A DNA stretch of 64,000 nucleotides, from positions 22,118-86,117 of the forward strand of contig JBDROF010000102.1 in NCBI GenBank assembly GCA_043810345.1. Direction: 5' to 3'. The notes beneath the pieces were generated by a model that was given only the letters and a program-made list of their open reading frames with translations, was not told the origin of the DNA and did not search any database. Numbering within the stretch: position 1 is the stretch's first letter; every line of letters starts with the position of its first letter. This document shows, piece after piece, positions 8,192-53,282 of this stretch. Position numbers and translations under genes: made by a program. Origin of the DNA: Bacteroidota bacterium. GTDB taxonomy: Bacteria; Bacteroidota; Bacteroidia; Bacteroidales; FEN-979.

Positions 8192-8503
8192 TTATGCTTG
8201 TGCCGTCGGAGTCCCTATATTGAATGGCATATCTCCCCCTGTATCTTTGATCTCTCCATGCATCGCCTCGTACTTACTGATGTTTTCTTTGAGTGCTTTA
8301 TACAGCCGTTTTGCATGCTGCGGTGTCAGGATAATCCTTGATTTCACTTTAGCTTTCGGAACTCCGGGCATCATTTTCACGAAATCCACGATAAATTCCG
8401 ATGGTGAGTGTGTGATGATGGCAAGGTTCGAATAGATTCCTTCACCAACATCATCTGAAAGCTCAATGTTGAGCTGTTGTTGTGGGTTTGTTTTTTCTTG
8501 CAT
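8192..8503 (-). CDS. small conserved protein (DUF3467-like) downstream of rpoC
   Basis: 103-aa ORF in tight linkage with rpoC. The region ...GIYSNLAIITHSPSEFIVDF... resembles the small DUF3467 family as I remember it. Confidence 0.5.
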   Translation of the reverse strand: MQEKTNPQQQLNIELSDDVGEGIYSNLAIITHSPSEFIVDFVKMMPGVPKAKVKSRIILTPQHAKRLYKALKENISKYEAMHGEIKDTGGDMPFNIGTPTAQA

Positions 8504-8514
8504 CTTATTGATTT

Positions 8515-11500
8515 TTAATCCTCTTCTTTGGAAGCCAGGAGGGTCTCATACTCCTCCTTGCTGCCTACGATCAAATCTTCATATTCACGCAGTCCGGTAC
8601 CGGCAGGGATCAGGTGACCAACGATCACATTCTCCTTCAGGCCGGCCAGATCGTCCTGGCGGGCATTGATAGCGGCCTGCGTCAGCACCTTGGTGGTCTC
8701 CTGGAAGGAGGCCGCTGAGATCCAGCTCTTGGTCTGAAGCGATGCGCGGGTGATTCCCTGCAGTACCTGGCGCGCAGTAGCCGGTTTGGCATCCCGGGCT
8801 TCCACCAGTTTCATATCTTTTCGCTTCAGGTACGAATTGTCATCTCTCAGTTTTCTGGCACTGATGATTTGTCCCGACTTGAATGTTTGTGAATCGCCTG
8901 GGTCTTCCACCACCTTCTTTCCATAAATCCAGTCATTCTCATCCTGGAAGTCGATCTTATTGACCAGCTCCCCTTCAAGGAACCGGCTGTCGCCGGGATC
9001 TTCCACATCCACTTTCCGCATCATCTGACGGACGATGGTCTCAAAATGCTTGTCGTTGATCTTAACTCCCTGTAAACGATAAACCTCCTGGATCTCGTTC
9101 ACGATGTACTCCTGTACCTTCATCGGGCCTTTGATGGCCAGGATATCACTGGGAGTCAGGGCGCCATCGGAAAGCGGGGTTCCTGCCTTCACGTAATCGT
9201 TCTCCTGTGCGAGGATTTGTTTGGTAGTTGGAACCAGGTAGCGTTTCTGTTCCCCGGTTTTCGAAGTAATGATCACCTCACGGTTACCTCTCTTCAGTTT
9301 CTTGGCAAAGGATACTACCCCGTCAATCTCGGAAACGATCGCGGGATCCGAAGGGTTTCTGGCTTCGAAGAGCTCGGTCACACGTGGCAGACCACCGGTG
9401 ATATCACCAGCCTTTCCAACGGCTCTCGGAATCTTCACCAGCACGATACCGGCTTTGATCCTGGCATTGTTTTCCATCATGATATGTGCCCCCACGGGAA
9501 GGTCATACGTCTTGATGATCTCTCCTTTGGCATCCAGGATGTTTATCACCGGATTTCTCGCCTTCTGACGTGATTCGATGATCACCTTTTCGTTGTATCC
9601 GGTCTGATCGTCAGATTCAACCCGGTAGGTCACTCCTTCAAGGATATTCTCAAAGCTGATTTTTCCCGGAACTTCTGAAAGGATCAGGGCGTTGTAGGGA
9701 TCCCAGTCGCTGATCAGGTCATCCCTCTTAACCTCTGCGCCATTCTCGTAAAAGAGCCGGGCTCCATACGGAATGTGAGAAGAGGTAAGGGCGATGCGGG
9801 TCGTTTTATCTATGATCCGCATCTCAGCAGACCGGCCGATCACAATGTTATAGGATTCTCCGGTCGCGGGATTAAAGGGTAGTGCCCGGAGCTCATCAAT
9901 CTCCAGGATACCATCGTATTTAGCCTGGATCCGGGAAGCGCTGGTGATGTTCACTCCAGCCACTCCACCCACGTGAAATGTACGCAGGGTGAGCTGTGTC
10001 CCCGGTTCTCCGATCGACTGGGCAGCAATGACCCCTACAGCTTCTCCTTTCTCAACCAGGCGCCCGGTGGCCAGGTTCCGTCCGTAACATCTGGTACAAA
10101 CCCCCTTTTTCGATTCACAGGTCAGTACCGAACGGATCTCCACACTTTCAATCGGTGAGTCTTCAATGACCTGAGCTACCTCTTCCGTGATCTCCATCCC
10201 GGTACCAATAATATTTTCGCCTGTCTGCGGATGAAATATATCATGAAGGGTAACGCGGCCAAGGATCCGGTCATAGAGCGATTCTACCACCTCTTCCTGC
10301 TTCTTGAGCACCGTGATGGTCAAACCTCTCAGGGTACCGCAGTCTTCCTCAGAGATTATCACATCCTGGGCAACATCCACCAGGCGACGGGTCAGATATC
10401 CAGCGTCAGCCGTTTTCAATGCCGTGTCAGCCAGACCTTTACGTGCACCGTGGGTAGAGATAAAGTACTCCAGTACGGAGAGTCCTTCCTTGAAATTGGA
10501 GAGGATGGGGTTCTCGATGATCTCACCTCCGCCAGCGCCTGATTTCTGTGGTTTGGCCATCAGACCTCGCATTCCGCACAACTGACGGATCTGCTCCTTG
10601 GAACCACGTGCACCGGAATCGAGCATCATGTAAACCGGATTCAGCCCCTGTTTGTCGTTCGAAAGCTGGTTCATCAGGGTGATAGTCAGCTTGGAATTGG
10701 TATGTGTCCAGATGTCGATGATCTGGTTGTAACGTTCGTTGTTGGTGATGAAACCCATATTGTAGTTTCCTACTACTTCATCCACTTCGGTTATGGCATC
10801 TTCGATCAAACGCTCTTTGATCTCGGGGATAATCACATCATCGAGGTTGAACGAGAGACCACCCTGGAATGCCATGGTAAATCCAAGGTCTTTGATGTCG
10901 TCAAGGAACTTGGCTGTTTTGGCTGTTCCTGTCTTTTTCAGAATGGAGCCAATGATGTCACGCAGTGCCTTCTTTGTCAGCAACTGGTTGATATAACCAT
11001 ACGCTTCAGGTACTACCTGGTTTAAGAGGACTCTCCCAACCGTCGTCTCTATGATTTTAGTCACCGGCTGTTCGTTTTCGCGGGTGGTGATGCGTACATT
11101 GATCACGGCATGGAGATCAGCACGCTTCTCATTGTAAGCAATGATCACCTCTTCGGGGGAGTAAAATGTCATTCCCTCTCCCGGCACTTTATCATTTCCA
11201 GCGCTGGTGCGGGCCTTGGTCATATAATAGAGACCCAGAACCATATCCTGGGAGGGTACCGAAATCGGGGCTCCGTTGGCCGGATTGAGGATGTTGTGCG
11301 AAGCCAACATCAGCAACTGTGCTTCCAGGATGGCTGCGTTACCCAGAGGTATATGAACCGCCATCTGGTCACCGTCGAAGTCAGCGTTAAAAGCGGTACA
11401 CACGAGCGGGTGAAGCTGGATTGCTTTCCCCTCGATCAGTTTGGGCTGGAACGACTGGATCCCCAGACGGTGCAACGTAGGAGCACGGTTCAGTAACACA

Positions 11501-12801
11501 GGATGTCCTTTCAGGATGTTCTCAAGGATATCCCAAACAACCGGGTCTTTCCGGTCGACGATCTTCTTGGCCGATTTTACCGTTTTGACGATACCTCTTT
11601 CCAGCATCTTCCGGATGATGAATGGCTTGAAAAGCTCGGAAGCCATCTCTTTGGGCAAGCCACATTCGTTCAGCTTCAATTCGGGACCAACCACGATGAC
11701 CGAACGGCCTGAGTAGTCTACCCGTTTCCCAAGCAGGTTCTGACGGAACCGTCCCTGTTTTCCTTTCAAACTGTCGCTGAGGGATTTGAGAGCGCGGTTC
11801 GATTCGGTTTTCACAGCGCTGGCTTTACGGGAGTTATCCAGCAATGAATCCACGGCTTCCTGCAGCATCCGTTTTTCGTTACGGAGGATCACATCAGGAG
11901 CTTTGATCTCGATCAACCGCTTCAGACGATTATTCCGGATGATCACCCGGCGGTAGAGATCGTTCAGGTCAGAGGTGGCGAATCGTCCTCCATCCAGTGG
12001 TACCAGGGGCCGTAACTCGGGCGGGATCACAGGAACCACTTTTACGATCATCCATTCCGGACGGTTCTCCAGCCTTTTCTGCGCATCACGGAAGGCTTCA
12101 AATACCTGCAGCCGTTTAAGGGCTTCACTTTTTCGCTGTTGGGAAGTTTCGGTATTGGCTTTGTGTCGCAAATCAAACGACTCTTTATCGAGGTTAAGCC
12201 TTGCCAGCAAATCACAAAGTGCTTCGGCTCCCATCCTGGCAATGAACTTATTGGGATCAGCGTCATCCAGGTACTGATTCTCCTGAGGGATCTTGTCGAG
12301 GATGTCAAAATATTCCTCCTCAGAGAGAAAATCGAGGTAGTTGATCCCCTCCTCCCGGAGAATGCCCGGATTGATGACTACATATTTTTCGTAATAGATG
12401 ATTGACTCCAGTTTCTTCGTTGGCAATCCCAGCATCGAGCCTATTTTATTTGGCAGAGAGCGGAAAAACCAAATGTGGGCAACGGGCACCACCAACTGGA
12501 TATGTCCCATCCGTTCACGCCGGACCTTCTTCTCTGTGACCTCTACCCCGCACCGGTCGCAAACAATTCCTTTATACCTGATCCTCTTATACTTACCGCA
12601 ATGACATTCCCAATCTTTTACCGGTCCGAAGATCCGCTCGCAGAATAAACCATCACGCTCGGGTTTGTAGGTCCGGTAGTTGATGGTCTCGGGTTTCAGC
12701 ACCTCACCGCTCGACAGTTCCAGGATCTTCTCCGGGGATGCAAGGCTGATCGTGATACTTGAAAAACCGCTGGTGATTGGTCCGTCTTTTCTAAAAGCCA
12801 T
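8515..12801 (-). CDS. rpoC: DNA-directed RNA polymerase subunit beta'
   Basis: 1428-aa ORF with the zinc-binding N-terminus ([23 protein letters not shown]) and the catalytic [12 protein letters not shown] motif. Confidence 0.98.
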
Positions 12802-12851
12802 ATAATTGTTGATTGTCGATTTCTAAACTGTTTGTGAACTTACCTGATTTC

Positions 12852-16658
<3,807 letters not shown>

Positions 16659-16728
16659 GGTCTTTGGGGATTTGCGTCCCGTTCGGGCGGGACAGTTTAA
16701 GAAACAATTTAACTTTCAATATAAACAA

Positions 16729-16766
16729 GTTATAGACCTCCCCTAGTTAAAGGGAAAGTCTATAAC
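16729..16766 (-). terminator. hairpin in the rplL-rpoB spacer (candidate attenuator or partial terminator)
   Basis: The 9-bp arms GTTATAGAC (16729-16737) and GTCTATAAC (16758-16766) flank an internal CCC/GGG pairing. On the minus strand TTGTTTAT follows. The position matches the rplL-rpoB attenuator known in E. coli. Confidence 0.45.
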
Positions 16767-16790
16767 TAATTAGGAATGAGAAAGTATAGT

Positions 16791-17171
16791 CTACTTAATT
16801 TCAACCTCTGCACCTGCTTCCTTTAATTGGTTCATCAATGCCTGAGCTTCATCTTTGGTAACGCCTTCCTTGATCGCCTTTGGTGCCGAATCTACGAGTT
16901 CTTTGGCTTCTTTGAGGCCGAGACTGGTCAGTTCCTTCACCAGTTTGACCACAGCCAGTTTAGCTTGTCCCGGGTGCTTCAGTACCACGTCGAATGAGCT
17001 TTTTTCCTCTACCTCAGTACCTCCTTCAGCAACAGCCGCAGGAGCAGCAACGGCTACAGCAGCAGCTGCGGGTTCAATACCATATTCATCTTTCAGGATT
17101 GCTGCCAATTCATTGACCTCTTTTACGGTCAGGTTAACTAACTGTTCAGCAAAAGCTTTTAAGTCTGCCAT
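16791..17171 (-). CDS. rplL: 50S ribosomal protein L7/L12
   Basis: 126-aa ORF with an Ala-rich hinge and the C-terminal ...[41 protein letters not shown]. Confidence 0.97.
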
Positions 17172-17236
17172 TTCATTTGTTGTTTTGGTTTCCGGTCTAT
17201 CCGGACGGTTTATAATTCTTGTTGGTTGCTTAATGA

Positions 17237-17758
17237 TTATTCGGGTCGTTCAGATAGAGTCCTGACGATGCCCGAGAGATTTGTTCCGCCTGATTGCAAT
17301 GCCGAGATAACGTTTTTAGCAGGGGATTGCAAGAGGGCAATCAGATCTGCCACCAGTTCATTTTTCGATTTGATGTTTATCAGTGCGTTCAGCTGATCGT
17401 CTCCAAGGTACGCAGTCTCTTCCACCCAGGCTCCTTTGAGAATGGGTTTAGGAGACCTCTTCCGGAACTCCTTGATCAGTTTAGCAGGGTCGTTAGGGAC
17501 CTCTGAAAACATGATCGAAGTAGAGCCGGTAAGGATACTGTAAAAAGGTTCCAACTTCTTTCCGCTTTTCTCCATGGCTATTCTGAGAAGGGTATTCTTG
17601 ATCATCTGCAGCTCGACATTGCGTTTGAAACAAAGCCGTCGCAGATGGCCGGATGTCTCCACATTCAGATCAGAGATATCAGTAAGGTAGAAGATATTGG
17701 CCTCTTTCAGCTTCTCAACCATAGAATCGATGATCTGATTTTTTTCTTCTTTTTTCAT
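17237..17758 (-). CDS. rplJ: 50S ribosomal protein L10
   Basis: 173-aa ORF located between rplA and rplL, with an L10-like sequence. Confidence 0.93.
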
Positions 17759-17784
17759 GATTTATCGTTCAGATTACTGAAAAA

Positions 17785-18480
17785 TTAAACCGTAACAGAT
17801 TTGGGTTCCACCTGTACTCCCGGGCTCATCGTACTTGAGAGGTAAATACTTTTAACATAAGACCCTTTGGCGGAGGCAGGTTTCAATTTGACGACTGTCT
17901 GGATAAGCTCCCTGGCGTTCTCTTCAATTTTGTCGGGTTCAAACGAAACCTTCGCAATCGAAGCGTGGATGATACCAAATTTATCTACTTTGAAATCGAT
18001 CTTTCCGGCTTTCACATCCTGGACAGCTTTTCCCACCTCCATGGTCACAGTTCCGGTTTTCGGGTTGGGCATCAGTCCGCGGGGTCCCAGGATCTTTCCG
18101 AGGGCACCCACTTTGGCCATGACACTGGGCATGGTAATGACTACGTCAATATCTGTCCAGCCACCTTTGATCTTCGTAATGTATTCATCCAGCCCGACAT
18201 AGTCAGCACCGGCCGCCTGGGCCTCTTCTTCCTTGTCGGGGGTACACAACACCAGTACCCGGATAGTTTTCCCGGTTCCGTGCGGAAGCGTCACGGTACC
18301 ACGAACCATTTGGTTTGCCTTACGGGGATCTACACCCAGGCGGATGTCTATATCAACTGAGGAATCAAATTTCGTATCGGTAATGTCTTTCACAATCCCT
18401 ATTGCATCAGTCAGTGCGTAAACAGCTTCCCGGTTATATTTCTCAAAAGCCGCTTTCCTCTTCTTGGTCACTTTCGTCAT
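17785..18480 (-). CDS. rplA: 50S ribosomal protein L1
   Basis: 231-aa ORF with ...[17 protein letters not shown]... and ...[16 protein letters not shown]... L1 motifs. Confidence 0.96.
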
Positions 18481-18491
18481 ATATTATAATA

Positions 18492-18980
18492 TTAATATTG
18501 TGATTCATGCAGAGTACAGACGCGATTAATCGCGTCTGTACAATTAAAAGGGGCCGTGCCTGATACGTTGATGCCCATGCTGCGCGCTGTTCCGGCTACC
18601 ATCTTCATGGCTGACTCTACGGTGAAAGCATTGAGATCGGGCATCTTATCTTCAGCGATCCGTTTTACCTGGTCCCAGGAGACCGATCCCACTTTAGCTC
18701 GGTTTGGCTCTGGTGAACCTTTCTGCAACTTCACGGCTTCCATAAGTTGTACCGCAACCGGTGGCGTCTTGATGATGAAATCGAACGACTTATCCCGGTA
18801 AACGGTGATGATAACAGGAATGATTTTTCCTCCTTTATCCTGGGTGCGGGCGTTAAACTGTTTACAGAACTCCATGATATTCACACCCTTGGCACCTAAA
18901 GCAGGGCCTACTGGTGGAGATGGATTAGCAGCGCCACCCTTGATCTGTAATTTAATTAATCCAGCTACTTCTTTTGCCAT
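18492..18980 (-). CDS. rplK: 50S ribosomal protein L11 with a C-terminal extension of about 16 aa
   Basis: The sequence [29 protein letters not shown]... is L11. The ORF is 162 aa versus 142 aa in E. coli. The extra tail ...[16 protein letters not shown] is encoded by the palindrome at 18514-18541. Confidence 0.93.
18514..18541. repeat. perfect 28-nt palindrome GTACAGACGCGATTAATCGCGTCTGTAC inside the 3' end of the rplK ORF
   Basis: The sequence is self-complementary when read directly. It lies 20 nt upstream of the rplK stop codon (18492-18494). Confidence 0.9.
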
Positions 18981-19051
18981 ATGTCATTTTTTATTGGTGA
19001 GACGCGGCAAGCCTCGTCTTTACTATTCCTGAGCCGCAATAATTTGCGGCT

Positions 19052-19594
19052 CTACTCTTTCTGAACCTGCATGAAGCCAAGTTCGAGCGGGGTTTTCCGT
19101 CCGAAGATTTTGACCATCACTTTCAGCTTTTTCTTCTCCTCGTTGATCTCTTCGATCACGCCGCTGAAGCTGTTGAAAGGGCCGTCTACCACCGTGACTG
19201 TCTCGCCCACGATATAAGGGATGTTGACCTCTTCACCCTGCTCCGACAGCTCGTCAAATTTTCCCAGCAGGCGTTTCACTTCAGAAGGCCTCAGCGGGTG
19301 GGCTTCCCCTTTTGCTCCAAGGAACCCGAGAACTCCGGGAACGTTTCGGATGATATGGGGAATTTCACCGACCAGGGTGGCTTCGATGAGCACGTATCCG
19401 GGAAAATAATTCCGCTCTTTGCTCACCTTTTTCCCTTTACGAATCATGTAAACCTTTTCAGTAGGTATCAGTACCTGTACGATGTAATCCTGAAGGTTGA
19501 GATTGGCAATCTCGCTTTCGAGGTATTGCTTCACCTTTTTTTCATTCCCACTGATGGCTCTGACAACGTACCATTTTTTATCCTGTTCACTCAT
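19052..19594 (-). CDS. nusG: transcription termination/antitermination factor NusG
   Basis: 180-aa ORF with the N-terminal [14 protein letters not shown] (NGN domain) and a C-terminal KOW region. It follows secE in the conserved order. Confidence 0.95.
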
Positions 19595-19630
19595 GCCTTC
19601 GGTGCAATTGTATCGACGTGTAGAATATGG

Positions 19631-19828
19631 CTAGAAAAGTTTGTAGAACTGCATCAGGACATTGCGGAAGACTTCGTCCATTGCAAATACGACCAGGGCA
19701 ATGATGAGCGATGCCACAGATACCACGATGGCGCTGCTTTGCAACTCCTTCCAGCTAGGCCAGGAAGCTTTATGAACCAGCTCATCGTAGCACTCTTTGA
19801 CGTAGGTAACTAATTTAAACTTAGCCAT
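19631..19828 (-). CDS. secE: preprotein translocase subunit SecE
   Basis: 65-aa ORF with a single C-terminal TM segment, located between tRNA-Trp and nusG. Confidence 0.85.
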   Translation of the reverse strand: MAKFKLVTYVKECYDELVHKASWPSWKELQSSAIVVSVASLIIALVVFAMDEVFRNVLMQFYKLF

Positions 19829-19843
19829 TTATCTAAATATTTG

Positions 19844-19916
19844 CACGGGTGGTAGGAGTCGAACCCACAGCCTACGGTTTTGGAGACCGCCACTCTACCA
19901 ATTGAGCTACACCCGT
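19844..19916 (-). tRNA. tRNA-Trp (anticodon CCA)
   Basis: Hand-folded cloverleaf with acceptor ACGGGTG/CACCCGT, anticodon loop CTCCAAA and T-arm GTGGG-TTCGACT-CCTAC. It sits in the conserved tuf-tRNA(Trp)-secE position. Confidence 0.9.
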
Positions 19917-19946
19917 GTACAATTAATCTTTAATTCAACGAATTGA

Positions 19947-21134
19947 TCAGTCAAGGATCTCTGTAACCTGACCGGCACCAACGGTACGCCCACCTTCACG
20001 GATGGCGAAGCGCAGACCTTTGCTCATGGCGATCTCGGAGATCAGATGTACTTCAATACTCAGGTTATCACCAGGCATCACCATCTCAACCCCTTCGGGA
20101 AGGATAATCTCACCCGTTACGTCGGTGGTTCTGAAATAGAACTGAGGACGGTATTTGTTATGGAATGGCGTATGACGTCCCCCCTCTTCTTTTTTCAGGA
20201 TATAGACCTCAGCGTTGAATTTTTTGTGCGGGGTGATAGATCCAGGTTTTGCGATCACCATACCTCGACGGATCTCATCTTTATCGATCCCACGAAGAAG
20301 CAAACCTGCATTATCCCCGGCTTCTCCTCTGTCGAGGATCTTGCGGAACATTTCCACACCGGTTACAACTGATTTCAGCTTTTCCGCACCCATCCCGATG
20401 ATATCAACCGGATCTCCTGTAAGGATCACTCCTGTTTCAATTCTTCCGGTAGCAACAGTACCACGGCCGGTGATGGAAAAGACATCCTCAACAGGCATCA
20501 AAAAAGGTTTATCCACATCGCGGGTCGGAAGTTGAATGTACTCATCGACAGCCGACATCAGCTCTATTATTCTCTCTATCCACTGTGCCTCTTTATTTAG
20601 TCCCCCCAGTGCAGATCCACGGATGATCGGCGTCGTATCGCCATCAAAACCGTAGAACGTCAATAGTTCACGAATCTCCAGCTCAACGAGGTCAAGCAGC
20701 TCGGGGTCGTCAACCATATCGCATTTGTTCATGAATACCACCATCCGGGGAACACCAACCTGACGAGCCAGGAGGATGTGCTCGCGTGTTTGCGGCATGG
20801 GACCATCGGTAGCTGCCACCACCAGGATGGCGCCGTCCATCTGTGCAGCACCGGTAACCATGTTCTTGATATAGTCGGCGTGTCCGGGACAGTCGACGTG
20901 CGCATAGTGACGATTCTCCGTCTGGTACTCAATGTGCGCCGTATTGATCGTGATTCCTCTTTCCTTCTCTTCCGGAGCATTGTCGATAGAATCAAACGAC
21001 CGGAAAGTAGATAACCCTTTGTCTGCCAGAATCAGTGTAATAGCAGCTGTCAAAGTAGTTTTGCCATGGTCAATGTGCCCGATGGTTCCGACATTAACGT
21101 GCGGTTTTGAGCGTTCGAATTTTTCTTTTGCCAT
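19947..21134 (-). CDS. tuf: elongation factor Tu
   Basis: 395-aa ORF with the [18 protein letters not shown] and NKCD GTPase motifs. Confidence 0.98.
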
Positions 21135-21184
21135 TTTGAATTAAAGTTTAATTACGTAATTTAAGATTAATTGCATAATAACTG

Positions 21185-21256
21185 AGCCTTTGACGAGAAT
21201 TGAACTCGTGACCCCTTCCTTACCAAGGAAGTGCTCTACCCCTGAGCTACAAAGGC
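21185..21256 (-). tRNA. tRNA-Thr (anticodon GGT)
   Basis: Hand fold: acceptor GCCTTTG/CAAAGGC, anticodon stem CTTCC/GGAAG with loop TTGGTAA, and T-arm ACGAG-TTCAATT-CTCGT. Confidence 0.9.
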
Positions 21257-25740: not shown

Positions 25741-26244
25741 ATGCGGAGAGAGATCGGAACATTCGAAGCATTTGAAAAGACGATGGAGAGGATGCGGGGC
25801 GATGGCATCCTGCTCGTTGCCGGCTATCCTCCCAATCCCATGACCATCGGCTGGGGTTCGTTGGGAACTGTTTGGAGCCGTCCTGTTTTCCAGGTACTGG
25901 TCAGACCAACCCGATATACATTCGGACTCATGGAGGATAGCCAGGCTTTCACGGTCAACGTGCTCTCCGATGACTATCAAAATGAGTTATTGCTTTGTGG
26001 AACCCGGTCGGGGCAGGATCTGGATAAAGCAGCCTCCTGCGGCTTCACCATGGTCAAGGGCGAAACCACTACGGCATTTTACATCCAGCAATCAACCATC
26101 CACTACGAATGCCGTATCATCCACAAACACCTTCTTGATGCGGCCACCCTGGATCCGGCCATTATTGAACGCTACTATCCCTTACGCGATTTTCACATGG
26201 TTTACTATGGGGAGATCGTGGGAGTCTTTAGGAATGAGGAATGA
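25741..26244 (+). CDS. flavin reductase-like (FMN-binding split-barrel) protein
   Basis: 167-aa ORF with ...NPMTIGWGSLGTVWSRPVF...FTVNV...CGTRSGQDLDK.... The last three codons and the stop lie in the heptamer array. Confidence 0.65.
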   Translation: MRREIGTFEAFEKTMERMRGDGILLVAGYPPNPMTIGWGSLGTVWSRPVFQVLVRPTRYTFGLMEDSQAFTVNVLSDDYQNELLLCGTRSGQDLDKAASCGFTMVKGETTTAFYIQQSTIHYECRIIHKHLLDAATLDPAIIERYYPLRDFHMVYYGEIVGVFRNEE

Positions 26245-26341
26245 GAAATGAGGAATGAGGAATGAGGAATGAAGGACGAGGGACGAAGGGCGAAGGATGA
26301 GGGACGTGAGACGTAAGACGTGAATTTCGAATTTCGAATTT
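26230..26341 (+). repeat. 112-nt tract of 16 strictly phased heptamers with drifting words
   Basis: The units read in one 7-nt phase as AGGAATG x2, AGAAATG, AGGAATG x3, AAGGACG, AGGGACG, AAGGGCG, AAGGATG, AGGGACG, TGAGACG, TAAGACG, TGAATTT, CGAATTT x2. The tract overlaps the stop codon at 26242-26244. Confidence 0.95.
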
Positions 26342-38614: not shown

Positions 38615-38684
38615 TAGTTGGCAGTTGGCATTCACGTCTCACGTCCTACGTCTCACGTCTCACGTCCTACGTCTTCCGTCTCCC
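38615..38684 (-). repeat. 10 phased heptamers; minus-strand reading ...GTAGGAC GTGAGAC GTGAGAC GTAGGAC GTGAGAC GTGAATG CCAACTG CCAACTA
   Basis: The plus strand reads TAGTTGG CAGTTGG CATTCAC GTCTCAC GTCCTAC GTCTCAC GTCTCAC GTCCTAC GTCTTCC GTCTCCC. It uses the same words and order as 26300-26330 and overlaps the stop codon (38653-38655) and last codons of the response regulator. Confidence 0.95.
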
Positions 38685-45868: not shown

Positions 45869-45890
45869 AAGGCATTAAGGGAAATTATTT

Positions 45891-45911
45891 TGAATTCTGA
45901 ATTCTGAATTA
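45891..45911 (-). repeat. three heptamers TGAATTC TGAATTC TGAATTA (minus-strand reading TAATT CAGAATT CAGAATT CA)
   Basis: It overlaps the histidine-kinase stop codon (45909-45911). Same family and same gene-relative orientation as 50655-50682. Confidence 0.9.
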
Positions 45912-47719: not shown

Positions 47720-47959
47720 TTTTTAGATTTTAAAGTTATACATTTTTTGCTGAAGCAAAATTAATTTGTGCGAATCGCTCTGAGAACAGGCTTTCGGTGG
47801 GTGCCCGATTTTTCCCGGTGAAACCCGGAATTTGTATTTTTGTTCGTGCCTGTTAATAACAATGAAGACACGGAAATCACGAAAAAATACAGATTAATCC
47901 GTGAAAATCCATATAAATCCGGATAATCTGTGTTCCAATAAATCCTTAGCTTTGCAGGG

Positions 47960-48958
47960 ATGAAGCTTTCATTTTACAAATATCACGGAACAGGCAATGA
48001 TTTCATTCTGGTCGATAACAGGGAAGGAACAATCGCACTATCGAAAAAGCAGATCGAACGTTTGTGTGATCGTCATTTTGGCGTCGGTGCCGACGGGCTG
48101 ATGTTACTTACTTCCGAAAAGGGGTATGATTTCGGCATGGTCTACTTCAATGCCGATGGGAACGAAAGCACCCTATGCGGGAACGGAGGCAGGTGCATAA
48201 CAGCCTTCGCACATATGCTGGGTATCATCGGTCAATCCGCCCGGTTTCTGGCCAGCGACGGCGAACATACTGCCAAAATCCTGAAAGACGAAGGGAATGT
48301 GAAATGGGTCCGGTTGAAAATGGCGGATGTAACTACCCCTCCCCTGGCCCCTCCCCAACAAGGGAGGGGAGTATCGGATATCGAAACAGATAAATCGTCC
48401 TTCGTCCTTCGTCCTTCGTCTTTCTTAATCAACACCGGCTCTCCCCATCTGGTTATCTTCGTTGAGAACGTGAGTGAAATAGATGCTGTATCAGAGGGCC
48501 GTAAACTCCGGGACGATCCCCAATTCGCCCCGGATGGAACCAATGTCGATTTCGTGGAGATCATGGAATCCAATCTCTTCGTCAGGACCTATGAACGAGG
48601 GGTGGAGAATGAGACACTCTCCTGTGGTACGGGGGTAACGGCGGCAGCAATGGCCTATGCCAGTTGGCAGTCCGCAGTCCGCAGTCCACAGTCCGCAGTC
48701 CTCAGTCCGCAGTCCGCAGTCCACAGTCCGCAGTCCGCAGTCCGCAGTCCAAAAATATCCAGGACCCAGCATCCAGGATCCAGCATCGAAATAGAAACAC
48801 TTGGCGGCAAACTGACCGTTTCCTTCCGGTTTGAGGATGGAACATTTACGGATATCTGGCTGAAGGGACCGGCGGAGCATGTTTTCAGCGGGGAGATCGA
48901 GGTTCGTGAAACGAGGGACGAGAGACGAGGGACGAGGGACGAAGAACTTAAGAGGTAA
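47960..48958 (+). CDS. dapF: diaminopimelate epimerase carrying in-frame repeat-derived insertions and a repeat-encoded tail
   Basis: The DapF core is recognisable: FYKYHGTGNDFILVD, NADGNESTLCGNGGRC, NTGSPHLVIFV, RTYERGVENETLSCGTG. The ORF is 332 aa versus 274 aa for E. coli DapF. The extra segments coincide with the repeats at 48336-48422, 48667-48784 and 48907-48958. Confidence 0.85.
   Translation: MKLSFYKYHGTGNDFILVDNREGTIALSKKQIERLCDRHFGVGADGLMLLTSEKGYDFGMVYFNADGNESTLCGNGGRCITAFAHMLGIIGQSARFLASDGEHTAKILKDEGNVKWVRLKMADVTTPPLAPPQQGRGVSDIETDKSSFVLRPSSFLINTGSPHLVIFVENVSEIDAVSEGRKLRDDPQFAPDGTNVDFVEIMESNLFVRTYERGVENETLSCGTGVTAAAMAYASWQSAVRSPQSAVLSPQSAVHSPQSAVRSPKISRTQHPGSSIEIETLGGKLTVSFRFEDGTFTDIWLKGPAEHVFSGEIEVRETRDERRGTRDEELKR
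48336..48370. repeat. GC-rich hairpin element (CCCCTCCC / GGGAGGGG family) inside dapF
   Basis: The sequence reads CCCCTCCCCtggCCCCTCCCcaacaaGGGAGGGGa. An 8-bp stem pairs 48348-48355 with 48362-48369, and the C-rich arm is duplicated at 48336-48344. It translates in frame as TPPLAPPQQGRG. Confidence 0.85.
48395..48422 (-). repeat. four phased heptamers TCGTCCT x3, TCGTCTT (reverse complement of the GGACGA words) inside dapF
   Basis: Read directly. It translates in frame as SSFVLRPSSF. Confidence 0.9.
48667..48750 (+). repeat. 12 phased heptamers (GCAGTCC with A/T variants), 84 nt, in frame inside dapF
   Basis: The units are GCAGTCC x3, ACAGTCC, GCAGTCC, TCAGTCC, GCAGTCC x2, ACAGTCC, GCAGTCC x3. 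The 21-nt super-period gives the peptide repeat QSAVRSP/QSAVLSP/QSAVHSP/QSAVRSP. Confidence 0.97.
48757..48784 (+). repeat. tandem 14-mer ATCCAGGA(C/T)CCAGC x2 inside dapF
   Basis: Read directly, immediately after the heptamer array. It is translated as ISRTQHPGSS. Confidence 0.85.
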
Positions 48959-48976
48959 GAGGTGAATCGTGAATAG
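48907..48976 (+). repeat. 10 phased heptamers TGAAACG AGGGACG AGAGACG AGGGACG AGGGACG AAGAACT TAAGAGG TAAGAGG TGAATCG TGAATAG
   Basis: It shows the same word progression as 26300-26341 and, in reverse, 38615-38684. It encodes the dapF tail (ETRDERRGTRDEELKR) and contains the dapF stop codon TAA (48956-48958). Confidence 0.95.
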
Positions 48977-49002
48977 TACAAATTATAAGTATTGCCAACT
49001 TC

Positions 49003-49023
49003 GGACTGAGGACTGAGGACTCC
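49003..49023 (-). repeat. three heptamers GGACTGA GGACTGA GGACTCC (reverse complement of the 48667 array units)
   Basis: The reverse complement of GGACTGA is TCAGTCC, a unit variant present in the intragenic array. Confidence 0.9.
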
Positions 49024-49055
49024 CTTCATGACCTCATGACCTCATGACCTCATGA
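49024..49055 (+). repeat. four phased octamers CTTCATGA CCTCATGA CCTCATGA CCTCATGA
   Basis: Read directly. Same family and same gene-relative orientation as 42694-42733. Confidence 0.95.
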
Positions 49056-49072
49056 CCCTATAACTATTGACG

Positions 49073-49093
49073 AATGACCAATGACCAATGATC
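49073..49093 (+). repeat. three heptamers AATGACC AATGACC AATGATC containing the GNAT start codon
   Basis: The ATG at 49088 is the ATG of the third unit. The two upstream unit ATGs open 5-codon out-of-frame mini-ORFs (MTNDQ*, MTNDP*). Confidence 0.9.
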
Positions 49094-49629: not shown

Positions 49630-50694
49630 ATGCACCTCTTTTTTCGAATCACCATCCTGCGTATCCTTCCATTCCTTCTCCTGGCAGCTCTGCTTGTGGG
49701 TACAGAGCGGCTCTACTTCCGGATCCACACGGCTGTAATCGACCTGGGAGATGCCGATCATGCATGGTTAACTATTCCTACCGGGGCAGGGTTCAACCAG
49801 GTGAAAGACAGTCTGTACCATCATGATTACGTCAGCAAAAAGAAATTCTTTGAAAACTACGTTGAACTGGGGAAGTACGACCATTATTTCAAGCCTGGCA
49901 GGTACAGGCTCCGGAACCGGATGAATGCCCGGGAACTGGTTGATATGCTGATCATGGGATTCCAGACCCCGGTGAATGTTTCATTCCACAACATCCGGAA
50001 AAAAGAGGAGCTTGCGGGCAGGATCGCCCGTCAGATCGAGGCCGATAGCCTGAGCCTGCTGACGGTTCTTTCTGACAACACCATCCTTTCTCAATACGAC
50101 GTAACTCCTCTGACGGTGTTCACCTTGACCATCCCCAACACCTATGAGATGTGGTGGAATTCCACAGCAGAAGACTTTATGGCACGAATGGCAACAGAAT
50201 CCAGGAAGTTCTGGAAAGGGGCCCGGACACGGAAGGCCGATTCCATCGGTTTGACCATTCCTGAAGTGGTTACCCTGGCCTCCATCATTGAGAAGGAGAC
50301 CACGAAGAATGATGAAAAGCCTTTGATTGCCGGTGTCTATATCAACCGCCTTCAAAAAAAATGGCCCCTTCAGGCCGATCCTACCCTGATCTATGCATGG
50401 GATGATTTCACAATCAACCGGGTCCTGAACCGACATAAAAAGATAAATTCTCCCTATAACACCTATAAAAACAGAGGCCTTCCTCCTGGACCCATCTGTC
50501 TCCCCTCAATCACCTCGATCGATGCGGTGTTGAACTACCGGGATCATAAGAATATGTACTTTTGTGCGAAGGAGGATTTCTCAGGATACCACGTTTTCTC
50601 CTCCACCATGAGTGAGCATAACAGAAATGCAAGGCGGTATCAGGAGGCGTTTAATAGAATTAAGAATTCAGAATTCAGAATTACAAATATATGA
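49630..50694 (+). CDS. mltG: endolytic murein transglycosylase MltG (YceG-like)
   Basis: 354-aa ORF with an N-terminal TM anchor and the ...VTLASIIEKETTKNDEKPLIAGVYINRL...LQADPTLIYA...SPYNTYKNRGLPPGPICLPS... YceG signature. The C-terminal ...IKNSEFRITNI is encoded by a heptamer array. Confidence 0.88.
   Translation: MHLFFRITILRILPFLLLAALLVGTERLYFRIHTAVIDLGDADHAWLTIPTGAGFNQVKDSLYHHDYVSKKKFFENYVELGKYDHYFKPGRYRLRNRMNARELVDMLIMGFQTPVNVSFHNIRKKEELAGRIARQIEADSLSLLTVLSDNTILSQYDVTPLTVFTLTIPNTYEMWWNSTAEDFMARMATESRKFWKGARTRKADSIGLTIPEVVTLASIIEKETTKNDEKPLIAGVYINRLQKKWPLQADPTLIYAWDDFTINRVLNRHKKINSPYNTYKNRGLPPGPICLPSITSIDAVLNYRDHKNMYFCAKEDFSGYHVFSSTMSEHNRNARRYQEAFNRIKNSEFRITNI
50655..50682 (+). repeat. 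four phased heptamers TAGAATT AAGAATT CAGAATT CAGAATT
   Basis: Read directly, within the last 13 codons of mltG. Confidence 0.9.
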
Positions 50695-51728: not shown

Positions 51729-53282
51729 ATGAAAATACTCCCTGTTGAAAAGATCCGGGAAGCAGACGCGTACACCATCGAACACGAGCCGATTACCGAC
51801 ATCGACCTGATGGAGCGGGCTGCCGGTAAATGTTTTGACTGGCTGTACCAGCATATACCCGCCACCCGCTCCGTTAAGGTATTCGCCGGAACAGGAAATA
51901 ATGGGGGTGACGGATTAGCCATCGCCAGAATGTTGGCTGAAAAAGGATACCTTGTAGAAGTAGTTCTTGCCGGTGATCCGGATACCCTTTCACCCAGTTG
52001 TAAACTAAATTACGACCGGTTTCTTGGGATCAAGGGTGGGAAAAGCAGATTTACCGTCCATTCAGCTCGGGGAAATTCAACTAAAGAGGCATCTCCCCTC
52101 CCTTTATGGGGAGGGGTCGGGGGAGGGGTCGTAATCATCGACGCCCTGTTCGGCAGTGGCCTGACGCGTCCCATCACAGGATTCCATGCAGATCTGATCC
52201 GGGCTGTCAACCAGTTGAAAGCACTCGTAGTCTCCATTGATGTCCCTTCCGGACTCTTCATCGATCAAACGGTAAAAGCGGAGAGCGATCCGGCTATCAT
52301 CCAAGCGGACTTCACGCTTACCTTTGCCCCGCCAAAACTGGCCTTCTTTTTTCCTGAAAATGACCCCTATATCGGGGAGTGGGTGCTGCTCGATATCGGA
52401 CTTTCAGAAGAGTACCTGAAACAGACGGAGGTGAAAAATTTCATGGTTACCGTGGCCAACGTCAAACCGCTTTTACGTAAACGTAATAAATTTGCTCACA
52501 AAGGAAATTTTGGCCACGCCCTGCTGATCTGTGGCGGAAAAGGGAAGATGGGAGCAGCCGTGCTGGCGGCAAGAGCCTGCCTGCAATCGGGGCCCGGACT
52601 GGTTACTGTGAGGGTTCCCCGTTCGGGAGTGGAGATCATGCAAACGGCCGTTCCGGAAGCCATGCTGGCGATCGATCCGGATGAAGAATACTACTCCGAG
52701 CTTCCCAAACTGGATGGATACACGGCCGTTGGGATCGGCCCTGGAATCGGTCTGGAGAAGTCCACAGGAAATGCTTTAAAGCATCTGATTCAGGAAGGTA
52801 TCCCGATGGTCATCGATGCCGATGCCATTACGATCCTGGGTGAAAATAAAACCTGGCTCTGTTTTCTTCCGCCAGGCAGCATCCTTACACCTCACCCCAA
52901 AGAGTTCGAAAGGTTAGCAGGCAAAACATCCAACGATTTCGAACGGAACCAGGTGCAACGGGAACTCTCTTTCAAATACTCCTGTTACATCGTATTGAAA
53001 GGAGCTTATACCGCCATCACCACACCCGACGGCAGATGCTTCTTCAACACCACCGGGAATCCCGGAATGGCTACCGGTGGAAGTGGCGATGTGCTGACCG
53101 GGATCATTACGGGATTGGTTGCCCAGCACTACCTTCCACTGGATGCCTGTTTGCTGGGAGTATACCTCCATGGACTAGCCGGTGACCTGGCTGCGGAAAT
53201 TACCGGCCACGAGGCATTGACTGCCGGAAAGATCATCCACCACCTTGGAAACGCATTTCTTTCGCTGTATGGAGAATTATGA
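51729..53282 (+). CDS. nnr: bifunctional NAD(P)H-hydrate repair enzyme Nnr (epimerase + ADP-dependent dehydratase), with an in-frame hairpin-element insertion
   Basis: 517-aa ORF with an N-terminal YjeF_N domain (...VFAGTGNNGGDGLAIARML...DALFGSGL...) and a C-terminal carbohydrate-kinase-like domain (...HKGNFGHALLICGG...GNPGMATGGSGDVLTG...). Confidence 0.88.
   Translation: MKILPVEKIREADAYTIEHEPITDIDLMERAAGKCFDWLYQHIPATRSVKVFAGTGNNGGDGLAIARMLAEKGYLVEVVLAGDPDTLSPSCKLNYDRFLGIKGGKSRFTVHSARGNSTKEASPLPLWGGVGGGVVIIDALFGSGLTRPITGFHADLIRAVNQLKALVVSIDVPSGLFIDQTVKAESDPAIIQADFTLTFAPPKLAFFFPENDPYIGEWVLLDIGLSEEYLKQTEVKNFMVTVANVKPLLRKRNKFAHKGNFGHALLICGGKGKMGAAVLAARACLQSGPGLVTVRVPRSGVEIMQTAVPEAMLAIDPDEEYYSELPKLDGYTAVGIGPGIGLEKSTGNALKHLIQEGIPMVIDADAITILGENKTWLCFLPPGSILTPHPKEFERLAGKTSNDFERNQVQRELSFKYSCYIVLKGAYTAITTPDGRCFFNTTGNPGMATGGSGDVLTGIITGLVAQHYLPLDACLLGVYLHGLAGDLAAEITGHEALTAGKIIHHLGNAFLSLYGEL
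52095..52130. repeat. GC-rich hairpin element (CCCCTCCC / GGGAGGGG family) inside nnr
   Basis: The sequence reads CCCCTCCCtttatgGGGAGGGGtcGGGGGAGGGGTC. An 8-bp stem pairs 52095-52102 with 52109-52116, and the G-rich arm is duplicated. It translates in frame as ..SPLPLWGGVGGGV... Confidence 0.85.

What the first reader, a model, noticed from the sequence alone, without database searches (positions are those of the whole stretch)
47960..48958. dapF carries three repeat-derived segments that all stay in frame, including 12 heptamers (84 nt)
The DapF catalytic core is intact, with both Cys regions present (CGNGGRC, CGTG). The ORF is about 58 aa longer than E. coli DapF (274 aa). The extra sequence coincides with repeat elements. 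A GC hairpin plus (TCGTCCT)4 at 48336-48422 is translated TPPLAPPQQGRG...SSFVLRPSSF. (GCAGTCC)12 plus a 14-mer duplication at 48667-48784 is translated QSAVRSP x4 ...ISRTQHPGSS. The heptamer array at 48907-48958 supplies the tail ETRDERRGTRDEELKR and the stop codon. A heptamer array stays in frame only when unit number is a multiple of 3, and 12 units is such a number, which suggests purifying selection on frame in an envelope/lysine-pathway gene. Gain or loss of one unit by slippage would knock out or restore dapF, so it could act as a contingency switch. This is inference only.
Basis: partly seen in the sequence, partly recalled or inferred. Interest (0 to 1): 0.75.

Follow-up and report, generated by a model that had tools for sequence, protein, structure and literature searches.

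The report
Heptamer repeat nests inside dapF gene
An intact cell-wall/lysine-pathway gene (dapF) of an uncultured Bacteroidota bacterium carries runs of 7-base repeats translated as floppy surface loops, and because relatives carry different repeats at the same spots this looks like tolerated simple-sequence DNA, not a genetic switch.

Summary
ORF 47960-48958 is a bona fide DapF with both catalytic Cys (C73, C222). Its extra length comes from a G/C hairpin plus (TCGTCCT)x4.3, from (GCAGTCC)x12.0 plus ATCCAGG-type heptamers, and from a tail read out of (ACGAGGG)x4.6 and (TAAGAGG)x2.

The contingency-switch interpretation is not supported.
- Heptamer arrays are a genome-wide habit here: 14 period-7 arrays in 64 kb, against 0 for periods 5, 6 and 9-11. 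Almost all are intergenic or at gene ends.
- All ten syntenic dapF orthologues examined (57-90% aa identity, dS >1.3 for most) carry heptamer arrays at the same two internal sites and often at the 3' end.
- Units and copy numbers differ between them (2.6-12 copies, not multiples of three). Only the total insert length keeps frame.
- Both sites are modelled as low-confidence loops outside the conserved core.
- Core dN/dS is 0.07-0.13.
- No length variants appear in independent assemblies or in the 90% clusters checked.
- The 12-unit array is interrupted three times.

Best reading: long-lived "repeat nests" in permissive loops, turned over by slippage and recombination and filtered by selection for frame. 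This is a new example of known phenomena (heptanucleotide SSRs; in-frame selfish repeats). The heptamer vocabulary shared across species and unrelated loci remains unexplained.

The parts
47960..48958 (+). dapF (diaminopimelate epimerase) ORF, 332 aa. It is intact and syntenic with its orthologues (LiaF-like gene upstream; GNAT, YceG and DUF2279 genes downstream).
48176..48178 (+). Codon of catalytic Cys73 (motif CGNGGRC).
   Evidence: Invariant in the 120-sequence alignment.
48623..48625 (+). Codon of catalytic Cys222 (motif SCGTGVTA). It starts the helix 223-241, and site 2 sits at the far end of that helix.
48332..48430 (+). Repeat nest 1 (aa 125-157, TTPPLAPPQQGRGVSDIETDKSSFVLRPSSFLI), between the last strand of domain 1 and the first strand of domain 2. 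Mean pLDDT in 10-residue blocks falls to 48-52 over residues 131-150, and residues 134-144 are below 50.
48336..48369 (+). G/C hairpin element: CCCCTCCCC twice, then GGGAGGGG. The same element is in dapF of L081 and L086, and a similar one lies in-frame in the Nnr gene at 52095-52128.
48395..48424 (+). (TCGTCCT)x4.3 heptamer array. Its last unit runs into the native beta-strand SFLIN. The same unit occurs in reverse orientation at 26271-26306.
48665..48781 (+). Repeat nest 2 (aa 236-274), in the loop after the catalytic helix of domain 2. It is about 33 aa longer than in solved DapFs. Mean pLDDT in 10-residue blocks is 46-59 over residues 241-270.
48667..48750 (+). (GCAGTCC)x12.0, translated (QSAV[RLH]SP)x4. 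Three units differ at the first base. The same unit lies at the same site in L084, L087 and L093.
48757..48787 (+). ATCCAGG-type heptamers (14-mer x2.2). Related ATCCGGG, CATCGGG and CATCCAG arrays are at the same place in L081, L084, L087 and L088.
48911..48963 (+). (ACGAGGG)x4.6 and (TAAGAGG)x2.1. This 3'-end array lies just past the stop in relatives and is read through here, giving the tail RDERRGTRDEELKR and the TAA stop at 48956-48958.
49003..49091 (+). Spacer arrays between dapF and the GNAT gene: (GGACTGA)x2.7, (TCATGACC)x4 and (TGACCAA)x3.4. All three carry stop codons in the dapF strand. The last overlaps the GNAT start codon at 49088 and appears to be amplified from the native junction CCAATGACC.
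47841..48660 (.). Tract 99-100% identical to L081, in a background of about 85-95% identity. It ends exactly at the nest-2 array, so it is probably a recombination tract.

Best explanation
This is the working, orthologous dapF of an uncultured Bacteroidota (Bacteroidales-like) lineage. The genomes of this lineage are littered with short tandem arrays of 7-nt units and small G/C hairpins.

In dapF these repeats occupy two internal positions that tolerate extra residues, plus the 3' end:
- Nest 1 is the inter-domain connection, aa 125-157.
- Nest 2 is the loop after the catalytic helix of domain 2, aa 236-274.
- At the 3' end, this allele has no stop before the array and reads 16 codons into it.

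The two internal positions are long-lived 'repeat nests' shared by every orthologue of the clade. The arrays inside them are young and keep turning over. The inferred processes are replication slippage, unit mutation followed by re-amplification, in-situ amplification of native seeds, and recombination or conversion between arrays.

Selection on DapF removes any variant whose total length is not a multiple of three or that contains a stop codon. What is seen is therefore always in frame. The encoded peptides are passenger, probably disordered surface loops.

Shown: gene identity, the repeat anatomy, conservation of the sites together with turnover of their content, purifying selection on the core, and absence of length variants in the available assemblies.

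Inferred: slippage and conversion as the turnover mechanism, neutrality of the loops, and retained enzyme activity.
For: - DapF identity and integrity. Foldseek top hits are all DapF, with TM-score (target-normalised) 0.72-0.83.
- Model: AF2 mean pLDDT is 86.6. Low values are confined to roughly residues 124-153, 242-273 and the tail.
- Genome-wide excess of period 7: 14 arrays against 0 for periods 5, 6 and 9-11.
- Arrays avoid gene interiors: 3 of 17 are internal, although about 90% of the window is ORF. A crude binomial gives P = 7e-12.
- Ten syntenic orthologues were examined. Every period-7 array of at least 2.5 copies lies in nest 1, nest 2 or the tail, and none lies in the core. Units and copy numbers differ.
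- Core dN/dS is 0.07-0.13 with dS above 1.3, while arrays are 77-100% internally identical. The arrays are therefore younger than the species splits.
- Seed amplification: the native dapF-stop/GNAT-start junction CCAATGACC is single-copy in L084 and L085. It is amplified to (AATGACC)x3-4 in the window and L086, and to related TTATGACC/TTAATGAC repeats in L093.
- The sister allele L081 is 99.4% identical over the first 705 nt, including nest 1, but has a completely different nest 2. Both alleles are in frame.
- C-terminal read-through tails come and go among strains that are at least 97% identical.
- The same kinds of repeat are in-frame in ComEC and Nnr in this window.
Against: - There are no activity, expression or proteomic data.
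- Disorder of the loops is only a prediction.
- All sequences are assembly consensuses, so minority length variants would be invisible.
- Occupancy of the same two sites across lineages with saturated synonymous divergence could mean the inserts, or the DNA arrays, are selected for rather than merely tolerated.
- Simple local slippage does not explain why the same heptamer units recur at unrelated loci and in different species: 35 identical-unit pairs against 2.0 expected.
- RPSSF[VL][ILV] at the end of nest 1 is conserved in several orthologues.
Confidence: 0.73

Rival explanations
1. The heptamer arrays themselves have a function at the DNA or RNA level, such as binding sites for a repeat-recognising protein, mRNA structure, or recombination or gene-conversion hot spots. 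They are kept at these positions for that reason, and the translated loops are the price paid.
For: - A restricted heptamer vocabulary is shared across species and non-orthologous loci.
- The nests persist although dS exceeds 1.3.
- A 99-100% identity tract shared with L081 ends exactly at the nest-2 array.
- The nest-1 array is 86% complementary over 28 nt to the tail array, and the nest-2 array is 86% complementary over 29 nt to the downstream GGACTGA array.
- Published speculation on regulatory roles of heptamer repeats exists (PMC4679880; bioRxiv 10.1101/2022.06.06.494920).
Against: - At nest 1 at least six unrelated units occur in different orthologues, so no particular sequence is conserved there.
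- The inverted complementarity is seen only in the window, L081 and L085 types. It is absent in L084, L086, L089 and L093 and weak in L088.
- There is no Rfam match and no terminator or promoter signal.
- A single recombination end-point is an anecdote.
Confidence: 0.12
2. The repeat-encoded peptides are adaptive additions to DapF, such as flexible linkers or interaction surfaces, retained by selection at the protein level.
For: - All clade members keep extra residues at the same two loops.
- The motif RPSSF[VL][ILV] recurs at the end of nest 1 in P0001, P0002, P0005, P0009 and P0010.
- The model extends the catalytic helix through the first ~6 array-encoded residues.
Against: - Peptide sequences differ completely between an 89%-identical pair (QSAVRSP repeats against QLAVGS..VIARNEVTKQT) and among all orthologues.
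- Insert lengths range from 14-41 aa at nest 1 and 27-63 aa at nest 2.
- The inserts are low-complexity and low-pLDDT.
- Typical Bacteroidales DapFs lack them.
Confidence: 0.08
3. Contingency locus. Slippage of the (GCAGTCC) tract by one or two units switches dapF off and on at high frequency.
For: The tract is a 12-unit array with a unit length that is not a multiple of three, and it lies inside the ORF. Simulated changes of 1 or 2 units give truncated 275-293 aa products lacking the last strands, while changes of 3 units stay in frame.
Against: - Three of the 12 units are variant, and the longest perfect run is 27 nt.
- The gene is housekeeping and under strong purifying selection.
- The tract is in the last third of the ORF.
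- The independent MAG protein P0121 has the identical array translation, including the R/L/H variants.
- The sister allele has the same length in L081-L083, L092, P0122 and P0123, with one synonymous change inside the array.
- No internal length variants occur among 16 members of the P0007 cluster or in the other 90% clusters checked.
- No truncated near-identical DapF appeared among the top hits.
- All ten orthologues are ON.
Confidence: 0.05
4. Assembly artefact or decaying pseudogene copy.
For: The sequence comes from a metagenome-assembled genome, and tandem repeats are prone to mis-assembly. The rest of the genome could not be searched for a second dapF.
Against: - The 84-nt array is shorter than the usual read length (own knowledge).
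- An independent MAG gives the same protein apart from 2 substitutions elsewhere.
- The ORF is intact, the catalytic residues are kept, synteny is conserved and dN/dS is low.
- There is no second dapF in the window.
Confidence: 0.02

Closest known systems
Heptanucleotide long simple-sequence repeats: Mrazek et al. 2007 as summarised in PMC4679880, TAACTGA repeats of Beggiatoaceae, Cyanobacteria and some Bacteroidetes (MacGregor 2015, PMC4679880), and cyanobacterial STRR heptamers (from memory)
   Same: - Head-to-tail 7-nt units.
- Period 7 strongly preferred over other periods.
- Mostly intergenic or at gene ends.
- Several different heptamers side by side in one spacer.
- The same unit recurs at many loci and in several taxa.
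- Occasional translation as 7-aa repeats when the unit has no stop codon.
   Different: - The units here are different. No TAACTGA array was found.
- In the published cases ORF-internal arrays lie mainly at the periphery of proteins or in hypothetical ORFs.
- Here two internal loops of a conserved enzyme are occupied, at the same sites in all ten orthologues of a clade.
Rickettsia palindromic elements (Ogata et al. 2000, 2002, as reviewed in PMC10969869) and other intragenic MITEs
   Same: Repeated, apparently selfish DNA is inserted in-frame into unrelated housekeeping genes. The insertion points are compatible with the protein fold, and the product is a translational fusion.
   Different: - RPEs are discrete ~100-150 bp elements with a family consensus that encode a conserved peptide.
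- Here the material is tandem 7-nt arrays of variable unit and length, plus a 34-nt hairpin.
- No terminal inverted repeats or target-site duplications are evident.
- The content turns over while the site stays.
Simple-sequence contingency loci of host-adapted bacteria (e.g. Haemophilus and Neisseria; heptanucleotide example discussed in PMC8262952)
   Same: A tandem tract whose unit length is not a multiple of three lies inside an ORF, so a change of one unit would shift the frame.
   Different: - The tract is interrupted.
- It lies in the 3' third of a housekeeping enzyme gene.
- No ON/OFF or length polymorphism is seen in the available sequences.
- The organism is an environmental bacterium in which such arrays are everywhere, mainly outside genes.

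Membership tests
DapF, diaminopimelate epimerase (TIGR00652 / PF01678) | Profile match above the curated cutoff over both domains. | tested here: met
   TIGR00652 scores 218.5 bits against a cutoff of 114.65. PF01678 gives 2 stretches at 1.4e-40.
DapF, diaminopimelate epimerase (TIGR00652 / PF01678) | Two catalytic cysteines, each at the N-terminus of a helix (Cys73 and Cys217 in E. coli numbering; from established knowledge). | tested here: met
   C73 and C222 are invariant in 120 homologues. Helices 74-86 and 223-241 follow them in the model.
DapF, diaminopimelate epimerase (TIGR00652 / PF01678) | Two-domain DapF fold. | tested here: met
   Foldseek ranks 1-16, 18-20 and 21-26 are DapF structures; rank 17 is the related O-ureidoserine racemase. 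For DapF targets E is 1e-18 to 1.6e-23 and the target-normalised TM-score is 0.69-0.83.
DapF, diaminopimelate epimerase (TIGR00652 / PF01678) | LL- to meso-diaminopimelate epimerase activity. | not testable with these tools
   Needs an enzyme assay or complementation.
Phase-variable contingency locus | Tandem tract inside the ORF or promoter whose unit length is not a multiple of three. | tested here: met
   (GCAGTCC)x12 at 48667-48750.
Phase-variable contingency locus | Long uninterrupted (perfect) tract. | tested here: not met
   3 of 12 units are variant, and the longest perfect periodic run is 27 nt.
Phase-variable contingency locus | Tract-length polymorphism with ON and OFF alleles among strains. 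| tested here: not met
   No length variants were found in P0121, in L081-L083 and L092, in P0122 and P0123, or in clusters of nine further orthologues. All ten orthologues are in frame. The sample is small.
Phase-variable contingency locus | Within-population (read-level) length heterogeneity. | not testable with these tools
   No reads are available.
Phase-variable contingency locus | The gene encodes a surface, host-interaction or restriction-modification function (typical, not strictly defining; own knowledge). | tested here: not met
   It is a housekeeping lysine/peptidoglycan pathway enzyme.
Heptanucleotide simple-sequence repeats (LSSR / STRR-like) | Head-to-tail arrays of 7-nt units, with period 7 in excess over other periods genome-wide. 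| tested here: met
   14 period-7 arrays, against 3 of period 8 and 0 of periods 5, 6 and 9-11 in 64 kb. The same holds in nine related loci.
Heptanucleotide simple-sequence repeats (LSSR / STRR-like) | Predominantly intergenic or at gene ends. | tested here: met
   14 of 17 arrays are outside ORF interiors although about 90% of the window is ORF.
Heptanucleotide simple-sequence repeats (LSSR / STRR-like) | The same units recur at multiple loci. | tested here: met
   35 identical-unit pairs among 53 arrays, against a null mean of 2.0 and a maximum of 7 in 2000 permutations.
RPE-like / MITE in-frame elements | In-frame insertion into housekeeping ORFs at positions compatible with the fold. | tested here: met
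RPE-like / MITE in-frame elements | A discrete element with a family consensus, terminal inverted repeats and target-site duplication. | tested here: not met
   The inserts are tandem arrays of varying unit and length. Only a 34-nt hairpin is present (2 copies in the window). The GTCATTGCGAG..CGAAGCAA palindrome occurs in four relatives but has 0 copies in the window. TIRs and TSDs were not searched for systematically.

The most novel reading that the evidence does not exclude
The heptamer arrays of this Bacteroidota clade may not be mere slippage products. They could be a self-propagating or actively maintained class of sequence with a limited unit vocabulary.

On this reading the arrays move or convert between loci and across species, and settle in heritable 'nests'. 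Some nests lie inside essential genes, where they continually rewrite surface loops and mark recombination end-points. No such mechanism is known for prokaryotic heptamer repeats.
Probability: 0.15. Interest if true: 0.65.

Novelty: new member of a known kind. Interest (0 to 1): 0.35.

Why it matters
This is a clean natural experiment on how much simple-sequence DNA a conserved enzyme can absorb, and where.
- Two loops of DapF have acted as repeat nests over a divergence at which synonymous sites are saturated, while the repeat content is renewed.
- It shows that tandem units whose length is not a multiple of three can persist inside essential genes without behaving as phase-variation switches. 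Annotators and SSR-based 'phasome' predictors should keep this in mind.
- It adds a Bacteroidota lineage to the puzzling, patchy distribution of heptanucleotide repeats, for which neither mechanism nor function is established.
- The shared unit vocabulary across species is the part worth following up.

Tried and rejected
It gave no close relatives and no taxonomy beyond 'Bacteroidota/Bacteroidales'.
- The exact protein P0001 is not on record in the contig index, so the source contig beyond the window could not be read.
- A metagenome scan with the 19-nt left flank of nest 2 found only one relevant contig, L092, which is the L081-type allele.
- A search with a (QSAVRSP)x6 peptide returned only four short, probably spurious ORFs. 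It says nothing about how often this array is translated elsewhere.
- A literature search for the STRR unit sequences returned noise. The resemblance of TGACCAA and GCAGTCC to cyanobacterial STRR units therefore rests on memory and is not used as evidence.
- The hairpin's fold energy is not unusual for its composition (z = -1.5).
- There are no terminator or promoter signals, no Rfam family and no tRNA.
- The long-range complementarity between arrays is not conserved in most orthologues. It was set aside as a by-product of the shared vocabulary.
- Longer DapFs outside the clade are mostly mis-called N-termini. Only P0095 (site 1) and P0025 (site 2) have non-repeat inserts there.
Full report
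OBSERVATION. The ORF 47960-48958 (+ strand, 332 aa) exists as described.
- It is diaminopimelate epimerase. NCBIfam TIGR00652 scores 218.5 bits against a cutoff of 114.65. Pfam DAP_epimerase gives 1.4e-40 in two stretches. All sequence hits to solved structures except one (O-ureidoserine racemase) are DapFs.
- Both catalytic cysteines (C73 in CGNGGRC, C222 in SCGTG) are invariant in an alignment of 120 homologues.
- Tandem Repeats Finder confirms the arrays. They are (TCGTCCT)x4.3 at 48395-48424, (GCAGTCC)x12.0 at 48667-48750 (92% matches), a 14-mer x2.2 equivalent to ATCCAGG x4.4 at 48757-48787, (ACGAGGG)x4.6 at 48911-48942, and (TAAGAGG)x2.1 at 48949-48963.
- The second TAAGAGG unit supplies the stop codon.
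- The hairpin CCCCTCCC..GGGAGGGG at 48336-48369 is real. There were 0 such matches in 100 shuffles of the window.
- The 12 units read G,G,G,A,G,T,G,G,A,G,G,G at their first base. The longest perfect periodic run is 27 nt.

WHERE THE REPEATS SIT IN THE PROTEIN.
- An AlphaFold2 model built on 120 homologues has mean pLDDT 86.6. The 10-residue blocks covering 131-150 and 241-270 average 46-59, and the tail blocks (321-332) average 64-65.
- Its best structural matches are DapF crystal structures, with target-normalised TM-scores mostly 0.72-0.83.
- Nest 1 (aa 125-157) joins the last strand of domain 1 to the first strand of domain 2.
- Nest 2 (aa 236-274) follows helix 223-241, which starts at the catalytic Cys222. 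It is therefore at the end of that helix remote from the active site.
- Compared with solved DapFs, nest 2 is about 33 residues longer.
- Nest 1 is not longer than in E. coli-type enzymes, but it is about 20 residues longer than in ordinary 260-265-aa Bacteroidales DapFs.
- That the inserts are disordered surface loops is a prediction, not a measurement.

THE GENOMIC HABIT.
- Period 7 dominates the window: 14 arrays, against 3 of period 8 and none of periods 5, 6, 9, 10 or 11.
- About 90% of the window is long ORF, yet only three of these 17 arrays are inside a gene. Two are in dapF and one is in a ComEC gene. A crude binomial gives P = 7e-12.
- The others are intergenic or overlap gene ends.
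- Three ORF 3' ends overlap or end inside arrays: the flavin reductase-like, response-regulator and YceG genes. A fourth array abuts the 3' end of the histidine-kinase gene. The GNAT gene starts inside an array.
- dapF is thus exceptional within its own genome.

RELATIVES.
- The protein search found an identical NCBI MAG protein (Bacteroidota bacterium), an 89%-identical one (P0002), and about 18 further proteins at 57-64% identity. The lengths of these proteins range from 270 to 329 aa. Ordinary Bacteroidales DapFs cluster at 260-265 aa.
- I fetched DNA for nine orthologous loci. All share the neighbourhood: a LiaF-like gene upstream and GNAT, YceG and DUF2279 genes downstream.
- In all ten genes, every period-7 array of at least 2.5 copies lies in nest 1, nest 2 or the 3' tail. 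None lies in the conserved core.
- Nest 2 begins at the same codons (GCC AGT T/GGG CAG T) in eight of the ten orthologues. It then carries CAGT-core units: CAGTCCG, CAGTTGG, CAGTGGG or CAGTCAC.
- Nest 2 often also holds a palindrome GTCATTGCGAG..CGAAGCAA and ATCCAGG-like units.
- Nest 1 carries at least six unrelated units in different species.
- Copy numbers are 2.6-12 and are not multiples of three. Only the total is in frame.
- Even the shortest member (270 aa, L093) has micro-arrays at both sites.
- Core dN/dS between the window and the 57-64% relatives is 0.07-0.13 with dS above 1.3. The gene is therefore under purifying selection.
- Arrays with 77-100% internal identity must be far younger than the species splits. 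The sites are old and the arrays are young.

HOW ARRAYS ARISE AND CHANGE.
- The native overlap of the dapF stop with the GNAT start (CCAATGACC) is single-copy in L084 and L085.
- It is amplified to (AATGACC)x3-4 in the window (49068-49091) and in L086. In L093 it is amplified to related TTATGACC/TTAATGAC repeats. This is direct evidence of in-situ amplification from a native seed.
- The 3' array (GACGAGR or GACGTRA units) lies just after the stop in L081, L085 and L093 and straddles the stop in L088. In the window it is read through for 16 codons.
- The same kind of tail comes and goes among strains at least 97% identical in another orthologue ('RNEGRRTSI').
- The window and L081 are 99-100% identical from 47841 to 48660, in a background of about 85-95%. 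The tract ends exactly at the nest-2 array. After it the array is entirely different and identity drops to about 80%.
- Recombination therefore reshuffles nests. Whether arrays attract break-points cannot be judged from one case.

TEST OF THE CONTINGENCY-SWITCH IDEA.
- Simulated gain or loss of one or two units truncates the protein at 275-293 aa. Changes of three units stay in frame. The logic is sound.
- The tract is interrupted, lies in the last third of a housekeeping gene, and shows no polymorphism where it could be looked for.
- An independent MAG protein (P0121) has the same array translation, including the R/L/H variants, while differing at two other residues.
- The sister allele has identical length in L081-L083, L092, P0122 and P0123. 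One synonymous change lies inside the array, and about a dozen substitutions lie elsewhere in P0123.
- The 16-member P0007 cluster and eight other 90% clusters show no internal length variants. The differences there are start-codon calls, contig ends and the C-terminal tail.
- No near-identical truncated DapF appeared among the best hits.
- These are consensus sequences and the sample is small. Minority variants cannot be excluded.
- From memory, E. coli dapF null mutants are viable. Lethality alone therefore does not rule out switching, but nothing here supports it.

WHAT REMAINS UNEXPLAINED.
- The same heptamer units recur at unrelated loci and in different species. GACGTGA occurs at two intergenic sites in the window, at the dapF 3' end in L081 and L093, and in nest 1 of L089.
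- CAGTGGG occurs in ComEC of the window and in nest 2 of L084 and L087. GAAGGAC occurs at 26271 and, in reverse orientation, in nest 1.
- Among 53 arrays there are 35 identical-unit pairs, against 2.0 expected. The maximum in 2000 within-unit permutations was 7.
- Some of these pairs are orthologous and could reflect descent with homogenisation, but several are not.
- The nest-1 array is 86% complementary to the tail array, and the nest-2 array to a downstream spacer array. This is not conserved in most orthologues.
- No Rfam family, tRNA, promoter or terminator signal overlaps the region.

COMPARISON WITH WHAT IS KNOWN.
- Heptanucleotide arrays are the commonest class of long simple-sequence repeats in many prokaryotes.
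- They are known from Cyanobacteria, Beggiatoaceae and a few Bacteroidetes, mostly between genes and sometimes with several different heptamers in one spacer.
- When translated they lie mainly at the periphery of proteins or in hypothetical ORFs. Their spread and function are unexplained (MacGregor 2015, PMC4679880, which also summarises Mrazek et al. 2007).
- In-frame colonisation of housekeeping genes by selfish repeats is classic for Rickettsia palindromic elements (reviewed in PMC10969869).
- The present case works like both. It is a member of the heptamer-SSR class: all three features tested were met. It is not an RPE or MITE, since it is not a discrete element. It fails the tests for a contingency locus that could be applied.

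VERDICT.
- The repeat origin of the inserts and selection for frame are supported.
- The significance attached to 12 being a multiple of three is only partly right.
- The switch hypothesis is not supported.
- What is there is a tidy new example of known phenomena. The notable twist is two conserved intragenic repeat nests in an enzyme across a whole clade, and the open question is the shared heptamer vocabulary.
- Interest is moderate-low (0.35).

Noticed in passing
window 1952-1981 (ORF 105-2168, - strand): A ComEC/competence-protein gene (PF03772, DUF4131) carries an in-frame (CAGTGGG)x4.3 array translated ..GRGQWAVGNSQ.. near its N-terminus. The same unit is found in nest 2 of dapF in L084 and L087.
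   Followed up: partly
window 52095-52131 (ORF 51729-53282, + strand): The Nnr (YjeF_N / carbohydrate-kinase) gene contains an in-frame G/C hairpin, CCCCTCCC..GGGGAGGGG(x2), translated SPLPLWGGVGGG. It falls in a loop about 12 residues longer than in the solved homologue TM0922. It is the same kind of element as in dapF nest 1.
   Followed up: partly
window 26230-26341, 38632-38682, 45887-45911, 50656-50684: Three ORF 3' ends overlap or end inside heptamer arrays: the flavin reductase-like, response-regulator and YceG genes. The 45887-45911 array abuts (3-nt overlap) the 3' end of the histidine-kinase gene. The YceG 3'-end/junction array is also present in L084 (5555-5579) and L086 (4490-4515), so this junction is another conserved nest.
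   Followed up: partly
window 47841-48660 vs L081: An ~820-bp tract is 99-100% identical between two genomes that are otherwise about 85-95% identical. It ends exactly at the nest-2 heptamer array. Downstream, the gene content also differs: HEPN/nucleotidyltransferase pair in L081, GNAT gene in the window.
   Followed up: partly
window and loci L081, L084-L089, L093, L094: A restricted heptamer vocabulary (GACGTGA, AATTACG, GCAGTCC, CAGTTGG, CAGTGGG, AATGACC, GAAGGAC, ATCCGGC, ACGAGGG) recurs across species and non-orthologous loci in both orientations. There are 35 identical-unit pairs against 2.0 expected.
   Followed up: partly
window 48397-48424 / 48920-48947 and 48690-48748 / 48993-49021: Two crossing pairs of inverted complementarity (28-29 nt, 86%) link the intragenic arrays to the arrays at and after the 3' end of dapF. 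The pattern is not conserved in most orthologues.
   Followed up: partly
L081 3768-3800, L084, L085, L087 (dapF nest 2): A small palindrome, GTCATTGCGAG(N)CGAAGTGACGAAGCAA, translated VIARNEVTKQT, is embedded in-frame in nest 2 of four relatives. It is absent from the whole window (0 matches with 1 mismatch allowed).
   Followed up: partly
window 47884-47926: A 20-mer x1.9 / 10-mer x3.5 repeat (AAAATACAGATAAATCCGTG) lies about 35-75 nt upstream of the dapF start. It is identical in L081. It may be part of the promoter region.
   Followed up: no
window ~8500-21200 (- strand): A run of large ORFs (1428, 1077 and 395 aa, plus several of 100-230 aa) looks by size and order like an rpoB/rpoC, ribosomal-protein and tuf cluster. 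This was not checked.
   Followed up: no
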